64,000 bases of DNA from IMG/VR virus record IMGVR_UViG_3300001687_000010; one strand, given 5' to 3'. Of this stretch, positions 17,757 to 51,060 are shown one piece after another. How positions within the stretch are numbered: position 1 is the first letter of the stretch; each line of letters starts with the position of its first letter. A program made the translations under genes and the position numbers. The stretch comes from a virus. Its lineage: Duplodnaviria > Heunggongvirae > Uroviricota > Caudoviricetes. The notes under the pieces are model-generated. The model made no database searches and had not been told where the DNA came from. It was given only the letters and a program-made list of their open reading frames with translations.

Positions 17757-18647
17757 ATGAGCGGTCAAGATAAAATTTTTGAGATGGTTACGGATACCAT
17801 CGTAAACAAACTGGAAGAGGGAACGATTCCGTGGCATAAGCCGTGGACGGGTACAATCGGTATGCCTCGCAATCTGGTTAGCAACAAAAACTATCGGGGC
17901 ATTAACATCCTTTTATTAGGGCTTCAGGGTTACGGCTCACCGTACTGGGTTTCTTTTAGGCAAGCGAGTAAACTCGGTGGCCATATTAGAAAGGGTGAGG
18001 CCGGTACGATTATCGTTTTCTGGAAATGGTTTGAAAAGGAAGAAGAAGTTGTAAACCCTGATACTGGGCTTACCGAAATTAAAAAGGTTAATATCCCGTT
18101 TTTACGTTATTACAGGGTATGGAACGTTGAGCAATGCGAAGGGCTAAAACATAAACGGTTAGAACCGCAGACCGATGGGCGAGAAGTTGAAGTTAATACC
18201 ACTGCGGAAACCATCTGGGACGGATGGGAGCATCCCGAAGTAAGAACAAACGGGGGACGGGCGTTTTACCATATAGGGGATGATTATATAGGTATGCCCG
18301 AACAAGCCACCTTCGATACCGATGACGATTATTACTCAACCCTGTTCCACGAAGGCATCCATAGTACAGGGCATCCTGACCGATTAAATAGACCGAGTAT
18401 CGTAAGGGATAAGGATTATGGCGTAGACGATTATAGCAAGGAAGAACTGGTAGCCGAAATAGGGGCTTGCTACCTTGCTACGATGGTCGGAATCGAGCGC
18501 ACGATTGATAACTCGGTTGCTTATATTAATGGATGGCTTAACAAACTTAAAAGCGACAAGCGGATGGTGGTATATGCAGCTGCTCAAGCCGAAAAAGCGG
18601 CCGAATATATTTTAAACAACGGGAAGGGAGAAACCGATAATGAGTAA
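17757..18647 (+). CDS. ardC: ArdC-like antirestriction protein (N-terminal ssDNA-binding domain + zincin-like MPTase domain)
   Basis: IPWHKPW, NLVSNKNYRGIN, WVSFRQA, YYSTLFHEGIHSTGH and YSKEELVAEIGA motifs. Confidence 0.9.
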   Translation: MSGQDKIFEMVTDTIVNKLEEGTIPWHKPWTGTIGMPRNLVSNKNYRGINILLLGLQGYGSPYWVSFRQASKLGGHIRKGEAGTIIVFWKWFEKEEEVVNPDTGLTEIKKVNIPFLRYYRVWNVEQCEGLKHKRLEPQTDGREVEVNTTAETIWDGWEHPEVRTNGGRAFYHIGDDYIGMPEQATFDTDDDYYSTLFHEGIHSTGHPDRLNRPSIVRDKDYGVDDYSKEELVAEIGACYLATMVGIERTIDNSVAYINGWLNKLKSDKRMVVYAAAQAEKAAEYILNNGKGETDNE

Positions 18648-18912: not shown

Positions 18913-19130
18913 AATTTAAAAACAAAATGGCATCCGCAACATTCGGTATAATGCTAACGGAAGCATGGGACAGGAAAATCTGCATTAAATGCCAGAACCC
19001 GATGTGGAAGATGCGTTTAACCCAGTTCGATATAAAGGAATGGAAAATTAGTGGACTCTGCCCGACCTGTTGGGGTGAGATTATGGGCGCAATCGAAACC
19101 ATAGACGCAAATGAAGATAATAACACTTAA
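18906..19130 (+). CDS. Small zinc-finger protein
   Basis: CIKC...CPTC. Confidence 0.65.
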   Translation: MLEFKNKMASATFGIMLTEAWDRKICIKCQNPMWKMRLTQFDIKEWKISGLCPTCWGEIMGAIETIDANEDNNT

Positions 19131-19277
19131 TCCACAATATAATATACCGGAGCTAAAGGAAAAAATCCGACAGGTCGTCCGTGAGCATACGGGTACTAAA
19201 GAAGATATATATATTAGCGTTATATATTATGAAGCGCATACGTTTAAAAAACCACCTAAAAAGAAAGGAAGAAAAAA

Positions 19278-19460
19278 ATGATTAAAAAGACTATCACGGT
19301 AACGGATTTAAGGAACGTAAACGGTGATTCGGATGCATCTTTTAAGGTTGCGAAGATTACAAATTCCGTGGATTATACAATCGATGAATATATGTCCGTG
19401 GATGAAGTTCAGGTTCTTTGCAACAAACCCGACTGGACGGTTAACATTGTTGGACGGTAA
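19278..19460 (+). CDS. Hypothetical protein
   Basis: ORF track; coupled to an upstream small ORF. Confidence 0.5.
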   Translation: MIKKTITVTDLRNVNGDSDASFKVAKITNSVDYTIDEYMSVDEVQVLCNKPDWTVNIVGR

Positions 19461-19598
19461 GGGGGGGGATTGTTATGCGGTTTACAAAAGCGGAAACCAA
19501 AATACTTAAAAAACTGGTCGCCGGATTATCGTGGGATGTTAGAAATCTATCCCAAGCCGAAAAAAGGATAATTAAAAAAATATTAGCAAAATAGTTTA

Positions 19599-19627
19599 TT
19601 TACAATTTCCTCATTATATAGTATAAT
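19599..19627 (+). promoter_or_regulatory. sigma70-like promoter for the Ro60-like locus
   Basis: TTTACA-N17-TATAAT; the predicted start at ~19634 lies just before hairpin R1. Confidence 0.8.
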
Positions 19628-19641
19628 GGTACTTTATTTCA

Positions 19642-19699
19642 AGGTTGGTTACAGCAATCAATAAAACATTACCTTTGAATAATGATGAATACCAACCTG
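19642..19699 (+). ncRNA. Y-RNA-like hairpin R1 (putative)
   Basis: AGGTTGG/CCAACCT 7-bp terminal stem, TTA-CAGCAA, inner stem CATTA/TAATG with loop CCTTTGAA. Confidence 0.6.
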
Positions 19700-19724
19700 T
19701 ACTCACTTCTTAGGGGGAAATATC

Positions 19725-21182
19725 ATGAAAACAAAAGAAGGTGCATTCGCACATAACCATTCTTACAACCACGCACTTGAATTTTTTAGCAAAGCCGGTT
19801 CTCTTTTTAATAAAAGGGGAAGCTTTTATGGCAAACAGGCTACGGCAGTCGAATTGTTTAAGCCTGCATGGGCTGAAGACCCAGAGGTAGCTTTAAAACT
19901 TGCCTTATGGCTTCGTGACTGCCGAGGTGGAGCAGGGAATCGTTCAGGCGGACGTGAATGCTTTCGTTATATAGCCCAAACTGACCCTGAATGGTTAGCG
20001 GTAAACCTAAAACAACTTCCCGATTTAGGTCGATGGGATGACCTACGAGCAGTATATGGTACGCAGTTAGAAGCTGATGCGGCTCAAATGTGGGCAGTTG
20101 CTATTAGGGATGAAAATGTTCTGGCTGCAAAATGGGCGGATAGAAACAAGGACAATCCAGTCCGTCAATTTATGGGTCTATCTAAAGCCGATTTTAGACG
20201 CTTACTCGCAAGGGTGCGTCAAAGCCATATCGTTGAGACCAAAATGTGCCGTAAGGAATATAACGCTATTAATTATGAGACCGTTCCGTCTGTGGCGATG
20301 TCCAGATATACTAACGCCTTTAAGAAAAACGACCCTGAACGATTTGAAGAATTTAAGAGTAAAATCGAAAAGGGTGAGGCTAAAGTACACGCCGATGTTC
20401 TGTTTCCGCACGACTGCGTTAGAACCGCAAGACACGGTGATAGAAAAATGGCCGATGCTCAATTCGATGCGTTGCCGAATTATTTAGACGGTACGGACGA
20501 AAAGATTATCGTTATATCCGATACATCTGGCTCGATGGGAACAGTGGTGGCTGGTTCTGTATGTGCAATGGACGTATCGCAAGGTATGGCTTTATATTGC
20601 TCAAGCAGATTGCCAGAGGATAGTCCGTTCTATAAACGCTTTATCGGATTTTGCTCTGAAGGTACGTTTAAGGAATGGCGTGGGATGACCTTCTCACAGG
20701 CTGTGCATAACCGTAAGGTATTTGATGGGGCTGTTGGCTCAACCCGTATTGACTTGGCCTTGGATTTAATTCTCGATATTGCCAAAAAACGTAATATTGA
20801 CCAGTCATTAATGCCGACAACTTTGCTTATCGTATCGGATATGCAGTTCCATCAAGGTGCTCGCCCTGCCAAATCAGCGTCCAGACATAATTACAATTAC
20901 TGGTATGATGAAGCAGATGCGAAAAGTGCCGGGGTTATAGATACCGAAGTTGAAATGTGTTTAACCCACTGGGACGAGGCCGGTTATATAAGACCTAAAA
21001 TTGTATACTGGAATACCGCAGGATATAGCGGACAACAGGCTACGGTTGAGGGCAGAAACGTGGGCTTAATATCAGGTTTTAGCCCAAGTGTATTAAAGGC
21101 GATATTCGGTGGTACGGATTTTTCACCTTTAGGTATTATGATGAGGGCTTTAGAAAAATACCAAGTAGAATCGCCTATATAA
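19725..21182 (+). CDS. TROVE + vWA domain protein (DUF2828 / Ro60-related RNA-binding protein)
   Basis: WLRDCRGGAGNR, GRWDDL, LAAKWADR, LFPHD, MIDAS-like DTSGSM, IVSDMQF, IVYWN and ISGFSP motifs. Confidence 0.85.
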   Translation: MKTKEGAFAHNHSYNHALEFFSKAGSLFNKRGSFYGKQATAVELFKPAWAEDPEVALKLALWLRDCRGGAGNRSGGRECFRYIAQTDPEWLAVNLKQLPDLGRWDDLRAVYGTQLEADAAQMWAVAIRDENVLAAKWADRNKDNPVRQFMGLSKADFRRLLARVRQSHIVETKMCRKEYNAINYETVPSVAMSRYTNAFKKNDPERFEEFKSKIEKGEAKVHADVLFPHDCVRTARHGDRKMADAQFDALPNYLDGTDEKIIVISDTSGSMGTVVAGSVCAMDVSQGMALYCSSRLPEDSPFYKRFIGFCSEGTFKEWRGMTFSQAVHNRKVFDGAVGSTRIDLALDLILDIAKKRNIDQSLMPTTLLIVSDMQFHQGARPAKSASRHNYNYWYDEADAKSAGVIDTEVEMCLTHWDEAGYIRPKIVYWNTAGYSGQQATVEGRNVGLISGFSPSVLKAIFGGTDFSPLGIMMRALEKYQVESPI

Positions 21183-21191
21183 ACGATTTGA

Positions 21192-21259
21192 AGGATGGAT
21201 TCAGCAAACCATACAACATAGAAGACTAATAATCTTTAATTGTTACCACCACCATCCTG
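21192..21259 (+). ncRNA. Y-RNA-like hairpin R2 (putative)
   Basis: AGGATGG/CCATCCT 7-bp stem, ATT-CAGCAA, inner stem GAAGA/TCTTT with 7-nt loop CTAATAA. Confidence 0.6.
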
Positions 21260-21285
21260 AAAGTTACAACCCTTAGAGATATTTA

Positions 21286-21343
21286 AGACTGGGTTCAGCA
21301 AACCACTATGACGCATAGATAGGGAACTGTCGGAACCAGTCTG
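21286..21343 (+). ncRNA. Y-RNA-like hairpin R3 (putative)
   Basis: AGACTGG/CCAGTCT 7-bp stem, GTT-CAGCAA, inner hairpins CTATG/CATAG and ATAG-GGAA-CTGT. Confidence 0.6.
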
Positions 21344-21382
21344 AGTAATACCAGATGGTTCCCTATCACTCAACTCCTTTCT

Positions 21383-21409
21383 GGGGATGGTTTCGGCCAT
21401 CCCCTTTTT
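21383..21409 (+). terminator. Intrinsic terminator closing the Ro60-like/hairpin transcript
   Basis: GGGGATGG-TTTCGG-CCATCCCC followed by TTTTT. Confidence 0.85.
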
Positions 21410-21450
21410 GTTTCTATTTACAACTCCTAAAAAATATGTTACAATATATA

Positions 21451-21511
21451 GAAAAAAAGTGAAAAAAGACTCAAGTTTTCTCTTGACTGGCCGATATTCC
21501 TGTTGTAACAT
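21451..21511 (+). promoter_or_regulatory. Strong early promoter, extended class (copy 2)
   Basis: gaaaaaaagtgaaaaaagactcaagttttctcTTGACT-N17-TAACAT. Confidence 0.75.
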
Positions 21512-21541
21512 ACAGGTATAACCTAAAAAAAGGAGATAAAA

Positions 21542-21871
21542 ATGAGCCATTTAGTTGATAACGATTTAGATTATTTTTTATGCGATGACTGCGGAGCGGC
21601 TTTTTCCGTATTTAACGAGATTTTTAGCACGGGTTACGTTAAAAGAACCATTAGCCCGACTAATATGCTGTTTAGGGGAGTATGCACGGCTTGCGGTTCT
21701 CCACGTATTTTTGCTGACCCTGCCGCTGATTACGAAGATGAAGACCCGGCCGATAGCATTGCGCCTAACGAGAATGAAGAAGATGACATGAGTTACGAAG
21801 AAATGTTTGAACGGTCGGCGGCCTTTAACGATATTAATGATATGATAGCGGAGATGAGAAATGACCTATAA
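21542..21871 (+). CDS. Zinc-ribbon protein with acidic C-terminus
   Basis: CDDC...CTAC; SD AGGAG. Confidence 0.7.
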   Translation: MSHLVDNDLDYFLCDDCGAAFSVFNEIFSTGYVKRTISPTNMLFRGVCTACGSPRIFADPAADYEDEDPADSIAPNENEEDDMSYEEMFERSAAFNDINDMIAEMRNDL

Positions 21872-22184
21872 CCTTTATAAAATTAGGGTACATGATACGC
21901 TTTACCTTTGTGACGATACGACCCTTGCCGATGTTAGGGCTATCGCAATTAAAGCCTTAAAACAGGGACGGGAAGTTAAATGGTTTGACGGCAGAACCCA
22001 ATGGTTAAGTTGGGATGTTGTTTTAGACCTTGACAAACACGCTTCCGATATATATACTTGGGATAAATCGTATGACAGGGTTTTGCATGAGGTGATTTTG
22101 CATACCAAAGCAAAGGATAAAAACGCACCACTCGATGGCGAAATAACCCATCGTAAAATCGGGGAAGTTTACCGTAAATTTTAA
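21861..22184 (+). CDS. Hypothetical protein
   Basis: Coupled ORF. Confidence 0.6.
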   Translation: MTYNLYKIRVHDTLYLCDDTTLADVRAIAIKALKQGREVKWFDGRTQWLSWDVVLDLDKHASDIYTWDKSYDRVLHEVILHTKAKDKNAPLDGEITHRKIGEVYRKF

Positions 22185-25399: not shown

Positions 25400-26683
25400 A
25401 TGATAGTGGAATGGTTTAAAAGGTTTATTAATAGGCATATTATTTGCACTTGTGAGCATCCCGATGTTTGTTTCGATTGTAATAAGGGCAATGAATCTTG
25501 CTATGTTCCCGGCCAGTGTGATTTAATTAAATGCCATATTGAACCCGATGAAGGATGGCCACGACCTAACCAAAAAGGATACGTCCTTATATCCGTAATG
25601 CTCATCCTCTGCCTTTTAACTATTATTGGGATAGCGTCCACCAATATAAGCAATACCGAATTGGCCATATCGGTTAACGAATCCATTTATCAAATGAATA
25701 TTTATGGCGCAGAGGCCGGTTTAGAAGTTGCTCCCGATTATTTAAAAGCAAACCTTACCCGTGCGGACTGGGATAATCCAGATTGGGAAGGCGGAGATAG
25801 TGATACTTTAGGTAATAATGTAACCTATACATATGTTATAAACCATTGGAAAGACGCTGATGGTAATATAATCCGAATGGGTGACGTGGACGGGGATTAT
25901 TTATGGGAACGAAACACGACCATAGGTGTACCGTTTGAAGTGGTACAAAGTGAAGGAACCCATCCACGTGGTGGAAAAACTAAATTAGAACATATATGGG
26001 AACCCGTTCCGCCTTACGTTATGCCCGAAGCGGCCTTATGGGTTAATAATATGGTAAATGGTAACGGTGTATCTGGTGCGATTGTCGGGGAAGGACCGGG
26101 GGATTCTTCGTTGCTATCTAAAGATTATTACGATAGTGATTATAATTGCCCTGCCGTACCGGATATTAAATACGAGTTAATGCCACCTGATATTAAATTC
26201 TCCGGTAATACCGGAGAAACTGAAACCTATGAATTAGCAGGGGCTACATATCCATTTCCGCAAGTAAAAGAAGCTTTAACTCATAACAAATATTGGGAAG
26301 TTGCTTCTACATTGGGTAATAAACTTCCGGCCACAATCGATTTAGGAACGCTCGATGACCCTGTTATTATTATTATCGATACCGGAAGTGATGTTAGCCT
26401 AAATCAAAACATCGTAGGCGCAGGAATTTTATACGTTGAAGGAGATTTAACCATATCTGGTAATTTTAGTTGGGAAGGATTGGTACTGGTAAACGGCAAT
26501 GTAACTTTTAATGGTGGTGGGGCAGCAAACTCCACTATGGTACGGGGTTCGGTGGTTGCGTCAGGAGACGCTGCAGCCATAAACGGTTCCGTGGATTTGA
26601 TATATGACTGCGAAGTTATGTCTAATTTACATGATAGTTTTTTAGCCTATAAGCGGACGCCAACTTGGAGATTTGTAAGATGA
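25400..26683 (+). CDS. PilX-like minor pilin / pilus assembly protein with a Cys-rich leader
   Basis: NQKG|YVLISVMLILCLLTIIGIASTNISNTE...YGAEAGLE matches the PilX N-terminus; C-terminal GAGILYVEGDLTISGNFSWEGLVLVNG beta-rich repeats. Confidence 0.8.
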   Translation: MIVEWFKRFINRHIICTCEHPDVCFDCNKGNESCYVPGQCDLIKCHIEPDEGWPRPNQKGYVLISVMLILCLLTIIGIASTNISNTELAISVNESIYQMNIYGAEAGLEVAPDYLKANLTRADWDNPDWEGGDSDTLGNNVTYTYVINHWKDADGNIIRMGDVDGDYLWERNTTIGVPFEVVQSEGTHPRGGKTKLEHIWEPVPPYVMPEAALWVNNMVNGNGVSGAIVGEGPGDSSLLSKDYYDSDYNCPAVPDIKYELMPPDIKFSGNTGETETYELAGATYPFPQVKEALTHNKYWEVASTLGNKLPATIDLGTLDDPVIIIIDTGSDVSLNQNIVGAGILYVEGDLTISGNFSWEGLVLVNGNVTFNGGGAANSTMVRGSVVASGDAAAINGSVDLIYDCEVMSNLHDSFLAYKRTPTWRFVR

Positions 26684-26871
26684 AAAAACGCTATTTTATC
26701 GAACTTGTAAAAGTCCGTGATGAGCGAGTTGTTTATAAAGGCTTGGTATGGACGACCAGTATGCCCAGACTCGTTGAAGAACTCGCATATAAGGGTTATA
26801 TGGTAACAACATATTACGAATGGGCTATCGGTTGTCAGCCCAAAATAATCCAGTTAGGGGAGATAAAATGA
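26680..26871 (+). CDS. Hypothetical protein
   Basis: Coupled ORF (MKKRYFIEL). Confidence 0.5.
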   Translation: MKKRYFIELVKVRDERVVYKGLVWTTSMPRLVEELAYKGYMVTTYYEWAIGCQPKIIQLGEIK

Positions 26872-51027: not shown

Positions 51028-51060
51028 GTGAGGGATAGGGGAACTGTCGGAATTTATATA

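What the first reader, a model, noticed from the sequence alone, without database searches (positions are those of the whole stretch)
19599..21409. Ro60-like (TROVE-vWA) gene flanked by three covarying Y-RNA-like hairpins: candidate phage ribonucleoprotein system
Seen: one sigma70-like promoter (19599-19627) and one terminator (21383-21409) bracket a unit R1-TROVE-R2-R3. R1 (19642-19699), R2 (21192-21259) and R3 (21286-21343) each have a 7-bp terminal stem with compensatory changes (AGGTTGG/CCAACCT, AGGATGG/CCATCCT, AGACTGG/CCAGTCT). Each also has a 3-nt linker, an invariant CAGCAA, a variable structured interior and a G right after the stem. R1 and R3 are both 58 nt. Established: Ro60/Rsr TROVE-vWA proteins bind Y RNAs through a 5'/3' terminal stem, vertebrate Y RNAs begin GGCUGG/AGUUGG and end ACUAGYC, and bacterial Rsr-Y RNA complexes act in RNA decay and repair. 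Inference: these hairpins are processed small RNAs that load onto the phage Ro60-like protein, forming a compact phage-encoded Ro/Y system, possibly with guide or decoy RNAs. I do not know of a described RNA family with this CAGCAA signature.
Basis: partly seen in the sequence, partly recalled or inferred. Interest (0 to 1): 0.93.

Follow-up and report, generated by a model that had tools for sequence, protein, structure and literature searches.

The report
Phage Ro60-like protein with partner RNAs
A phage gene for a ring-shaped, Ro60-like RNA-binding protein is flanked by three small hairpin RNAs of a widespread, apparently unnamed family that also matches the unexplained "Class I" RNAs of social amoebae, and at least two of those amoebae encode the same protein.

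Summary
R1 (19642-19699), R2 (21192-21259) and R3 (21286-21343) each have a 7-bp terminal stem, a 3-nt linker, CAGCAA and a G after the stem. They lie between a strong sigma70-like promoter and a terminator, around a 485-aa gene.

The protein is Pfam DUF2828+DUF7788, not TROVE. Its predicted fold matches Ro60 over its whole length (Z 19.8; the top ten solved structures are all Ro60).

The hairpins belong to a large family. A model built from them gave 111 hits in 78 homologous phage loci, all on the gene strand, down to about 30% protein identity. Hits often sit inside tRNA arrays. The family is also present in coliphage wV8, mycobacteriophage GuuelaD and Listeria phage CKA15. Some members carry a YrlA-like permuted tRNA domain, and about a third carry an anticodon-arm-like hairpin.

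No Rfam family reaches its threshold. The best sub-threshold matches are Dictyostelium Class I RNA and YrlA.

Most likely this is a Ro/Y-type ribonucleoprotein. Binding, processing and function are untested. This scan had already found the same system on at least 13 other genomes. I found no paper that defines the RNA family.

The parts
19599..19627 (+). sigma70-like promoter TTTACA-17 nt-TATAAT. The predicted transcript start lies about 7-8 nt before R1.
   Evidence: 11 of 12 matches, the best site in 19000-22000; sequence
19642..19699 (+). R1, 58 nt. It has a 7-8 bp terminal stem (AGGTTGG/CCAACCT), the linker TTA, CAGCAA, a variable interior and a trailing G. It lies in the 5' leader of the gene.
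   Evidence: model R1 45.7 bits; weak Rfam RF01414 match at 21.6 bits over the full model length
19713..19719 (+). Shine-Dalgarno-like AGGGGGA, 5 nt before the ATG
   Evidence: sequence
19725..21182 (+). Gene for a 485-aa DUF2828+DUF7788 protein. It has a Ro60-like fold (helical-repeat ring plus a vWA domain) with an intact MIDAS signature: D266-x-S268-x-S270, T340, D372.
   Evidence: Pfam; PHROG 850 'RNA-binding protein'; invariant residues; model pLDDT 83.5; Ro60 is the top match in PDB and Swiss-Prot; Z 19.8 over 409 residues
21192..21259 (+). R2, 68 nt. It has the stem AGGATGG/CCATCCT, the linker ATT and CAGCAA. Its interior holds a 5-bp hairpin with the 7-nt loop CUAAUAA, which resembles an anticodon arm. 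A G follows the stem.
   Evidence: 36.9 bits; stem kept when folded in context
21286..21343 (+). R3, 58 nt. It has the stem AGACTGG/CCAGTCT, the linker GTT, CAGCAA and an inner hairpin CUAUG-ACG-CAUAG. A G follows the stem.
   Evidence: z -2.9; 30.5 bits
21352..21369 (+). Segment complementary to the R3 interior (21317-21334). It forms an alternative 16-bp helix that would compete with the R3 terminal stem in the unprocessed transcript.
   Evidence: minimum-energy and centroid folds of 21183-21412
21383..21412 (+). Intrinsic terminator: a 9-bp GC-rich stem, a 4-nt loop and a T run
   Evidence: (-17.1 kcal/mol, z -4.7)

Best explanation
R1, R2 and R3 are genes for small non-coding RNAs that partner the protein encoded between them, forming a Ro60/Y-RNA-type ribonucleoprotein.

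All three share a "handle". It consists of a 7-bp helix joining the 5' and 3' ends, whose sequence is free but whose pairing is kept. The helix is followed on the 5' side by about 3 nt and a single-stranded CAGCAA, and on the 3' side by G plus U or A.

Inferred, by analogy with Ro60 and Y RNA: the handle is the docking site for the ring-shaped DUF2828+vWA protein. The fast-evolving interior is a second module that recruits or distracts another factor.

In relatives this interior is often a piece of tRNA, either an anticodon-arm-like hairpin or a YrlA-like T-arm/acceptor/D-arm domain. The genes often sit in phage tRNA arrays. The likeliest field of action is therefore tRNA or structured-RNA surveillance, repair or protection during infection.

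In this window one promoter would make one transcript, R1-gene-R2-R3, from which the RNAs would have to be cut out. That step is also inferred.
For: Shown here:
1. The three elements exist and are the only ones in the 64 kb.
2. In 74 homologous loci, 105 of 238 gene-strand CAGCAA sites outside the ORF have a perfect 7-bp partner at a fixed offset, followed by G. The rate is 4.4% after shuffling the downstream sequence and 1 of 57 on the opposite strand.
3. All 111 model hits in the 78 loci are on the gene strand. All 7 stem pairs show changes on both sides, but those sequences were selected for pairing.
4. The elements accompany the gene from 90% down to about 30% protein identity. They occur in three unrelated cultured phages: wV8, GuuelaD and CKA15.
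5. The protein has a Ro60 fold. The PDB top 13 are all Ro60, with Z 19.8 and rmsd 4.4 over 409 of 485 residues. The Swiss-Prot top 5 are Ro60, followed by telomerase p80.
6. Some members embed a permuted tRNA-like domain that the Rfam YrlA model recognises over its full length, at 37.7 bits and E 1e-4.
7. An anticodon-arm-like hairpin occurs in 35 of 109 elements, against 5.1 expected.

From the literature:
- In Listeria phage CKA15, abundant non-coding transcripts arise within 2 kb upstream of the homologous gene. The authors suggested they might be Y RNAs (PMC12282133). I found three handle elements between a sigmaA promoter and that gene.
- Dictyostelid Class I RNAs have the same design and are proven abundant discrete RNAs of about 60 nt (PMC7919456).
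Against: - No binding, processing or expression data exist for this window.
- The protein fails Pfam TROVE, and the RNAs lack the Ro-binding motif of Y RNAs.
- R1-R3 themselves have no tRNA-like T/D module.
- In the full 3' region, R3 is predicted to adopt an alternative helix instead of the handle.
- R1 lies in the mRNA leader, so it could act in cis.
- The CKA15 paper gives coordinates for only one abundant region (26,236-26,727). That region has no CAGCAA element. The overlap of the other two regions with the elements is therefore plausible but unverified.
Confidence: 0.7

Rival explanations
1. The hairpins are cis-acting parts of the gene's own mRNA. They would be leader and trailer structures that stabilise the transcript, or sites where the protein binds to regulate its own synthesis. 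They would not be separate small RNAs.
For: In this window all three lie inside one promoter-terminator unit. R1 sits in the 5' leader, 25 nt before the start codon. CKA15 has the same promoter-elements-gene order.
Against: In many relatives the elements are scattered among tRNA genes. They lie up to about 1 kb from the gene, separated from it by tRNAs, in up to seven copies. The amoebal look-alikes are free RNAs of about 60 nt. The interior changes completely between 73%-identical relatives while the handle stays.
Confidence: 0.12
2. The elements are degenerate tRNA-derived punctuation. They would be minihelix-like processing signals for RNase P, RNase Z or RNase E in phage tRNA arrays. Their link to the DUF2828 gene would come only from shared location.
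For: The terminal stem is 7 bp with one unpaired base after it, like an acceptor stem with a discriminator base. The elements are frequent inside tRNA arrays on the same strand. Some are fused to tRNA-like parts.
Against: This window has no tRNA gene at all, yet it keeps three elements tightly around the gene. GuuelaD likewise has gene-RNA-RNA-RNA-terminator with no tRNA gene annotated in the 4.3-kb stretch fetched. The invariant single-stranded CAGCAA has no counterpart in tRNA processing signals.
Confidence: 0.08
3. The variable interiors are antisense guides that direct the protein to complementary phage or host transcripts. This reading is compatible with a ribonucleoprotein but proposes a different mode of action.
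For: The R3 interior GGGAACTGTCGGAA recurs exactly at 51039-51052 on the same DNA strand, in a region whose ORFs are all on the minus strand. A transcript there would therefore be complementary to R3. No shuffle produced a match.
Against: This is a single case. By my own estimate, about 0.06 such 14-mers are expected between the three interiors and 128 kb. Interiors are not conserved even between close relatives. Many interiors are self-folded tRNA-like hairpins rather than open guide segments.
Confidence: 0.08
4. The similarity is chance, or the elements are DNA-level inverted repeats such as recombination or protein-binding sites.
For: The motif is short and the window is AT-rich.
Against: There is a tenfold excess over shuffled sequence and a strict strand bias. 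There is an asymmetric conserved motif and an asymmetric trailing G. Arms 45-200 nt apart are unlike operator sites.
Confidence: 0.02

Closest known systems
Ro60/Rsr with Y RNAs: bacterial YrlA/YrlB and Yrn1 (Rfam RF02553; Chen et al. 2014, PMC4201824) and Thermus phage phiLo Ro60 with Yrl1/Yrl2 (PMC12135203)
   Same: - The protein has the ring-plus-vWA fold (Z 19.8 to Ro60; phiLo Ro60 is among the top hits).
- The RNA genes lie next to the protein gene on the same strand.
- The RNA has a 5'/3' terminal stem with a single-stranded conserved motif just after its 5' arm, plus a second, variable module.
- Some members carry the T-arm, acceptor hairpin and D-arm in the same order as YrlA.
   Different: - There is no Pfam TROVE match and no sequence similarity to Ro60.
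- The motif is CAGCAA, not GGUCCGA, GNCGAA or CGAA.
- Most members are only 50-70 nt and lack the tRNA-like domain.
- There are up to seven or more copies per locus, often inside tRNA arrays.
- The Rfam YrlA threshold is not reached (best 37.7 bits against 69).
Dictyostelid Class I RNAs (Rfam RF01414; Aspegren 2004, Avesson 2011, Kjellin 2021 PMC7919456)
   Same: - Length is about 60 nt and GC content is about 30-40%.
- A 6-7 bp terminal stem has free sequence but covarying pairs.
- The conserved motif (CC)UUACAGCAA lies directly after the 5' arm.
- The interior is hypervariable.
- The RNA starts (A)AG and ends CUGU.
- RF01414 is the top non-tRNA Rfam match to several phage elements, over its full length (36.1, 32.5, 24.8, 22.9 and 21.6 bits).
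- Tieghemostelium lacteum and Polysphondylium violaceum, which have Class I RNAs, encode DUF2828+DUF7788 proteins.
   Different: - The Rfam threshold of 41.5 bits is not reached.
- The stem-to-motif spacing is 1 nt shorter.
- Class I RNAs are dispersed eukaryotic genes with their own upstream promoter element, and no Class I-like RNA lies within 10 kb of the amoebal protein gene.
- The only proven direct binder is the RRM protein Rnp1A/CIBP.
- Class I RNAs were reported to be absent outside Dictyostelia.
Annotations of the same protein family in cultured phages: 'Ro-like RNA binding protein' (cluster L mycobacteriophages), PHROG 850 'RNA-binding protein', and CKA15_055 (PMC12282133)
   Same: It is the same protein family, found in 704 phage records. 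The CKA15 authors noted an HHpred match to Rsr and guessed that nearby abundant RNAs might be Y RNAs.
   Different: None of these sources defines the RNA elements, their handle, their spread or the link to Class I RNAs.

Membership tests
Ro60/Rsr (TROVE + vWA proteins) | Match to the Pfam TROVE domain, or sequence similarity to Ro60 | tested here: not met
   Pfam gives only DUF2828 (9e-33) and DUF7788 (4e-24). A profile search of PDB sequences finds no Ro60. Some UniRef entries of eukaryotic homologues are nevertheless named 'TROVE domain-containing protein'.
Ro60/Rsr (TROVE + vWA proteins) | Helical-repeat ring capped by a vWA domain, matched over the whole length | tested here: met
   The Foldseek PDB top 13 are all Ro60, E 1e-6 to 1e-4. 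VIA-align gives Z 19.8, rmsd 4.4 and 409 aligned residues. The next class of hits is vWA-only at Z 9. The Swiss-Prot top 5 are Ro60. The model has pLDDT 83.5.
Ro60/Rsr (TROVE + vWA proteins) | MIDAS motif DxSxS...T...D in the vWA domain | tested here: met
   D266, S268, S270, T340 and D372 are invariant in 29 homologues. The assignment is by sequence pattern only.
Ro60/Rsr (TROVE + vWA proteins) | Binds Y RNA and misfolded RNA | not testable with these tools
   No RNA-protein prediction or experiment was available.
Y RNA / YrlA (Rfam RF00019, RF02553) | Score at or above the Rfam gathering threshold | tested here: not met
   There is no hit in the window. Relatives reach at most 37.7, 32.0 and 21.6 bits against 69.
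Y RNA / YrlA (Rfam RF00019, RF02553) | Conserved Ro-binding motif (GGUCCGA / GNCGAA) by the terminal stem | tested here: not met
   CAGCAA occupies that position in all three elements. The motif definition comes from PMC4201824.
Y RNA / YrlA (Rfam RF00019, RF02553) | Terminal 5'/3' stem, and the gene next to the Ro60-like gene on the same strand | tested here: met
Y RNA / YrlA (Rfam RF00019, RF02553) | tRNA-like domain (T arm, acceptor hairpin, D arm) | tested here: not met
   It is absent from R1-R3. It is present in relatives: L001 2957-3072, L036 about 1100-1230, L081 2989-3122 and L009 3351-3462.
Dictyostelium Class I RNA (Rfam RF01414) | Score at or above the gathering threshold (41.5 bits) | tested here: not met
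   R1 scores 21.6 bits. Independent phage elements score 36.1, 32.5, 24.8 and 22.9 bits, all over the full model length.
Dictyostelium Class I RNA (Rfam RF01414) | 42-65 nt, short terminal stem with covariation, 11-nt motif CCUUACAGCAA after the 5' arm, end CUGU | tested here: met
   - R1 has GGUUACAGCAA (9 of 11, including all five near-invariant positions) and ends CCUGU.
- R2 and R3 have 4 of the 5 near-invariant positions and end CUGA.
- R2 is 68 nt.
-; published sequences.
Dictyostelium Class I RNA (Rfam RF01414) | Upstream DUSE promoter element; occurrence restricted to Dictyostelia | tested here: not met
   The setting here is a phage with a bacterial-type promoter.

The most novel reading that the evidence does not exclude
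The CAGCAA-handle RNAs and the DUF2828 Ro-like protein form one ancient ribonucleoprotein shared by phages and eukaryotes. On this reading, the Class I RNAs of social amoebae are its eukaryotic RNA subunits. Those RNAs were thought to be unique to Dictyostelia, tied to multicellular development and without a known Ro-type partner. The amoebal DUF2828 protein would be their missing partner. In phages the exchangeable tRNA-part interiors would serve as decoys or adaptors in the conflict over tRNA cleavage and repair.
Probability: 0.35. Interest if true: 0.92.

Novelty: new variant of a known kind. Interest (0 to 1): 0.82.

Why it matters
Ro60 and Y RNAs are a classic but still poorly understood RNA-surveillance system, known in animals, about 5% of bacteria and a few phages. 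This finding points to a second, much larger branch. The protein family occurs in 704 cultured phage records and in thousands of metagenomic proteins. It has its own RNA signature, and it is present in well-studied phages (Felix O1 relatives, Listeria P100 relatives, cluster L mycobacteriophages) where it can be tested at once.

It also gives a concrete, testable candidate partner for the Dictyostelium Class I RNAs, whose mechanism has been open since 2004. In addition, it suggests why phage tRNA arrays hold many unannotated spacers.

Tried and rejected
- **DNA search of GenBank phages** with the 2-kb unit: no match.
- **Single-protein locus search in IMG/VR:** nothing. The alignment-based search worked.
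- **Whole-genome search and sequencing-run tools:** not available for this window. I therefore have no expression data and no copies elsewhere in the genome.
- **Swiss-Prot fold search:** it found no Dictyostelium entry.
- **Identity of DDB_G0281243**, the unnamed Class I RNA pull-down protein:
  - Only one preprint names it.
  - Avesson 2011 is not held.
  - The supplements do not mention it.
  - No D. discoideum orthologue appeared among the named hits. This is not proof of absence.
- **Searching the T. lacteum record** with the phage RNA model: the record is not held.
- **Class I-like RNAs within 10 kb of eukaryotic DUF2828 genes:** none. The one weak hit (L085 12045-12094) lies in a conserved Rab GTPase exon and was rejected.
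- **The most abundant CKA15 transcript region** (L087 1944-2435): it has no CAGCAA element and no Rfam match. It is not this family.
- **Resemblance of the stems AGGYUGG to human Y RNA 5' ends:** judged coincidental, because the stem sequence varies freely across the family.
Full report
**1. The observation**

- A TTTACA-17-TATAAT promoter lies at 19599-19627.
- R1 lies at 19642-19699.
- A Shine-Dalgarno sequence is followed by a 485-codon ORF at 19725-21182.
- R2 lies at 21192-21259 and R3 at 21286-21343.
- A strong terminator hairpin lies at 21383-21404.

Each R element has a 7-bp terminal stem whose sequence differs while pairing is kept. The stem is followed by 3 nt, CAGCAA and a variable interior, with a G directly after the 3' arm.

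A pattern scan of all 64 kb finds only these three on the + strand. A covariance model finds the same three. There are no tRNA genes in the window.

**2. The protein**

Pfam assigns DUF2828 and DUF7788, not TROVE. PHROGs calls the family 'RNA-binding protein'. No solved structure is similar in sequence.

An AlphaFold model from 29 homologues (pLDDT 83.5, pTM 0.82) matches Ro60.
- The 13 best PDB chains are all Ro60, including the Thermus phage phiLo protein. After them the scores drop sharply.
- VIA-align gives Z 19.8 and rmsd 4.4 Å over 409 residues spanning 1-466. The ten best entries are all Ro60. The next class is vWA-only at Z 9.
- In Swiss-Prot the five best are Ro60 from bacteria to man, followed by the TROVE protein telomerase p80.
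- The MIDAS residues are invariant.

'Ro60-like' therefore holds for the fold. It does not hold for family membership by sequence.

**3. The RNAs are a family**

The protein family is very large: more than 2,900 hits in the first search and 704 cultured phage records.

I fetched 78 IMG/VR loci with homologues of 29-58% identity. Stem+CAGCAA hairpins abound in them on the gene strand.
- *Count not selected for pairing.* Outside the ORF, CAGCAA occurs 238 times on the gene strand and 57 times on the other strand. Of the gene-strand sites, 105 (44%) have a perfect 7-bp partner at a fixed offset, followed by G. The rate is 4.4% after shuffling the downstream sequence and 1 of 57 on the opposite strand.
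- *Covariance model.* A model built from 79 elements gave 111 hits at E ≤ 0.01, all on the gene strand.
- *Covariation.* All seven stem pairs change on both sides, with 3-6 pair types each. That alignment was selected for pairing, so only the diversity of pairs is informative, not the 100% pairing.
- *Close relative.* A 73%-identical syntenic relative keeps the R1 handle but has an unrelated interior. Its downstream element reads CUGCAA.

**4. Cultured phages**

- *Coliphage wV8 (Felix O1 group).* Three clear elements (28-34 bits) and one weak match (14 bits, E 0.14) lie between tRNA genes, just downstream of the gene.
- *Mycobacteriophage GuuelaD.* Its gene is annotated 'Ro-like RNA binding protein' but is a DUF2828 member. 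The order is gene, element, a longer element with a tRNA-like insert, element, terminator. This matches the window's layout.
- *Listeria phage CKA15.* A sigmaA-type promoter is followed by three elements and then the gene.

The CKA15 authors reported three extremely abundant, apparently non-coding transcript regions within 2 kb upstream of this gene. They noted an HHpred match to Rsr and suggested Y RNAs. They also found the protein in purified virions (PMC12282133). They give coordinates only for the most abundant region. That region has no element and no Rfam match. The overlap of the other two regions with the elements is therefore plausible but unverified. An RtcB-type ligase gene lies 1.3 kb downstream.

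The LeBron homologue is moderately toxic when over-produced. That phage also encodes an RNA ligase and a polynucleotide kinase (PMC13148394).

**5. What the interiors look like**

Several longer members contain, between CAGCAA and the 3' arm, a T arm (GGTTCGAATCC), a closed acceptor-like hairpin and a D arm. This is the permuted order that defines bacterial YrlA.

The Rfam YrlA model matches one of them over its full length at 37.7 bits (E 1e-4 across all of Rfam) and others at 32.0 and 21.6 bits. All are below the threshold of 69.

Of 109 distinct elements, 35 carry a hairpin with a 7-nt loop of the anticodon-loop pattern Y-U-NNN-R, mostly on a 5-bp stem. Shuffles predict 5.1. R2 has one, with the loop CUAAUAA.

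In many loci the gene lies inside the phage tRNA array. Some 'tRNA' matches of about 115 nt carry a CAGCAA module where the anticodon arm should be.

**6. The amoeba connection**

The only Rfam match to the window was R1 against Dictyostelium Class I RNA, at 21.6 bits. On independent phage elements the same model scores 36.1, 32.5, 24.8 and 22.9 bits, always over its full length. It is the best non-tRNA family together with YrlA, but stays below its threshold of 41.5.

The published description matches point by point (PMC7919456; sequences):
- about 60 nt and GC 32-41%;
- a 6-bp covarying stem joining the ends;
- CCUUACAGCAA directly after the 5' arm;
- a hypervariable interior;
- a start at (A)AG and an end at CUGU.

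The authors found no such RNA outside Dictyostelia.

- They are Tieghemostelium lacteum DLAC_02580 and Polysphondylium violaceum CYY_003295.
- Both are encoded by intronless genes in ordinary nuclear contigs.
- The T. lacteum protein is 28% identical to the window protein (E 1e-54).
- Both species are reported to have Class I RNAs.
- Compact homologues also occur in Vannella, oomycetes, a chytrid, a red alga and giant-virus metagenomes.

Points that weaken the link:
- No Class I-like RNA lies within 10 kb of the amoebal genes.
- I could not find a D. discoideum orthologue.
- I could not learn what DDB_G0281243 is. It is the unnamed protein pulled down with Class I RNA DdR-21.

**7. Mechanism**

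Shown: an RNA family with a conserved handle is coupled in the genome to a Ro60-fold protein, and its interiors are modular and often tRNA-like.

Inferred: the handle binds the protein, as the stem plus motif of Y RNAs binds Ro60. The interior recruits or distracts a second factor. The system acts on tRNA or other structured RNA during infection. In this window the RNAs are cut from a single transcript.

For R3, an alternative 16-bp helix with 21352-21369 is predicted to win in the unprocessed transcript. It could mask R3 until processing.

**8. Rivals**

I considered four rivals, detailed in the Rival explanations section:
- cis-acting mRNA elements;
- tRNA-array punctuation unrelated to the protein;
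- antisense guides;
- chance.

The first two fail mainly on the distribution across loci. The guide idea rests on one 14-nt match.

**9. Novelty**

- Annotations already call the protein Ro-like.
- One paper guessed at Y RNAs.
- The only five papers that mention DUF2828 do not deal with this.
- No Rfam family reaches its threshold.
- I found no paper that defines the RNA family or links it to Class I RNAs.
- Earlier agents of this scan reached the same reading on at least 13 other genomes. Their notes agree with this report but are not independent evidence.

Noticed in passing
window 21322-21335 and 51039-51052: An exact 14-nt repeat, GGGAACTGTCGGAA, links the R3 interior to an intergenic site beside a terminator. 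All ORFs in that region are on the minus strand, so a transcript there would be complementary to R3. With flanks the match extends to about 19 of 20 nt.
   Followed up: partly
window 21317-21334 with 21352-21369: A 16-bp helix between the R3 interior and the sequence just before the terminator dominates the predicted fold of the 3' region. It would break the R3 terminal stem.
   Followed up: partly
L060 3020-3132 and 3192-3313; also L075 3036-3147, L058 801-913, L064 3144-3259: These are Rfam 'tRNA' matches of about 115 nt. They have normal acceptor, D and T arms, but an insert containing CAGCAA sits where the anticodon arm should be. They look like hybrids of a tRNA and a handle element.
   Followed up: partly
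L087 1944-2435 (Listeria phage CKA15 record 26,236-26,727): The paper reports this region as the most abundant transcript of the infected cell. It has no CAGCAA element and no Rfam match. It is an unexplained RNA of about 490 nt, about 1 kb upstream of the Ro-like gene.
   Followed up: partly
L086 7769-13575 (Aphanomyces euteiches contig): Three DUF2828+DUF7788 genes of about 508-510 aa lie side by side in an oomycete genome.
   Followed up: no
window 17757-18647: An ArdC-type anti-restriction gene (PHROG 7245; Pfam ArdcN plus metallopeptidase in relatives) lies about 1 kb upstream on the same strand. It is syntenic in the 90%- and 73%-identical relatives. The Ro-like unit therefore sits in an early, host-takeover gene block.
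   Followed up: partly
L074 4082-4238: A match to permuted tmRNA (RF04321, 49.7 bits, above its threshold of 47) lies at the end of a phage tRNA array that also holds handle elements.
   Followed up: no
L087 6307-7518; PMC12282133: In CKA15 an RtcB-type 'tRNA splicing ligase' gene lies 1.3 kb downstream of the Ro-like gene. The Ro-like protein was detected in purified virions (20 peptides, 57% coverage).
   Followed up: no
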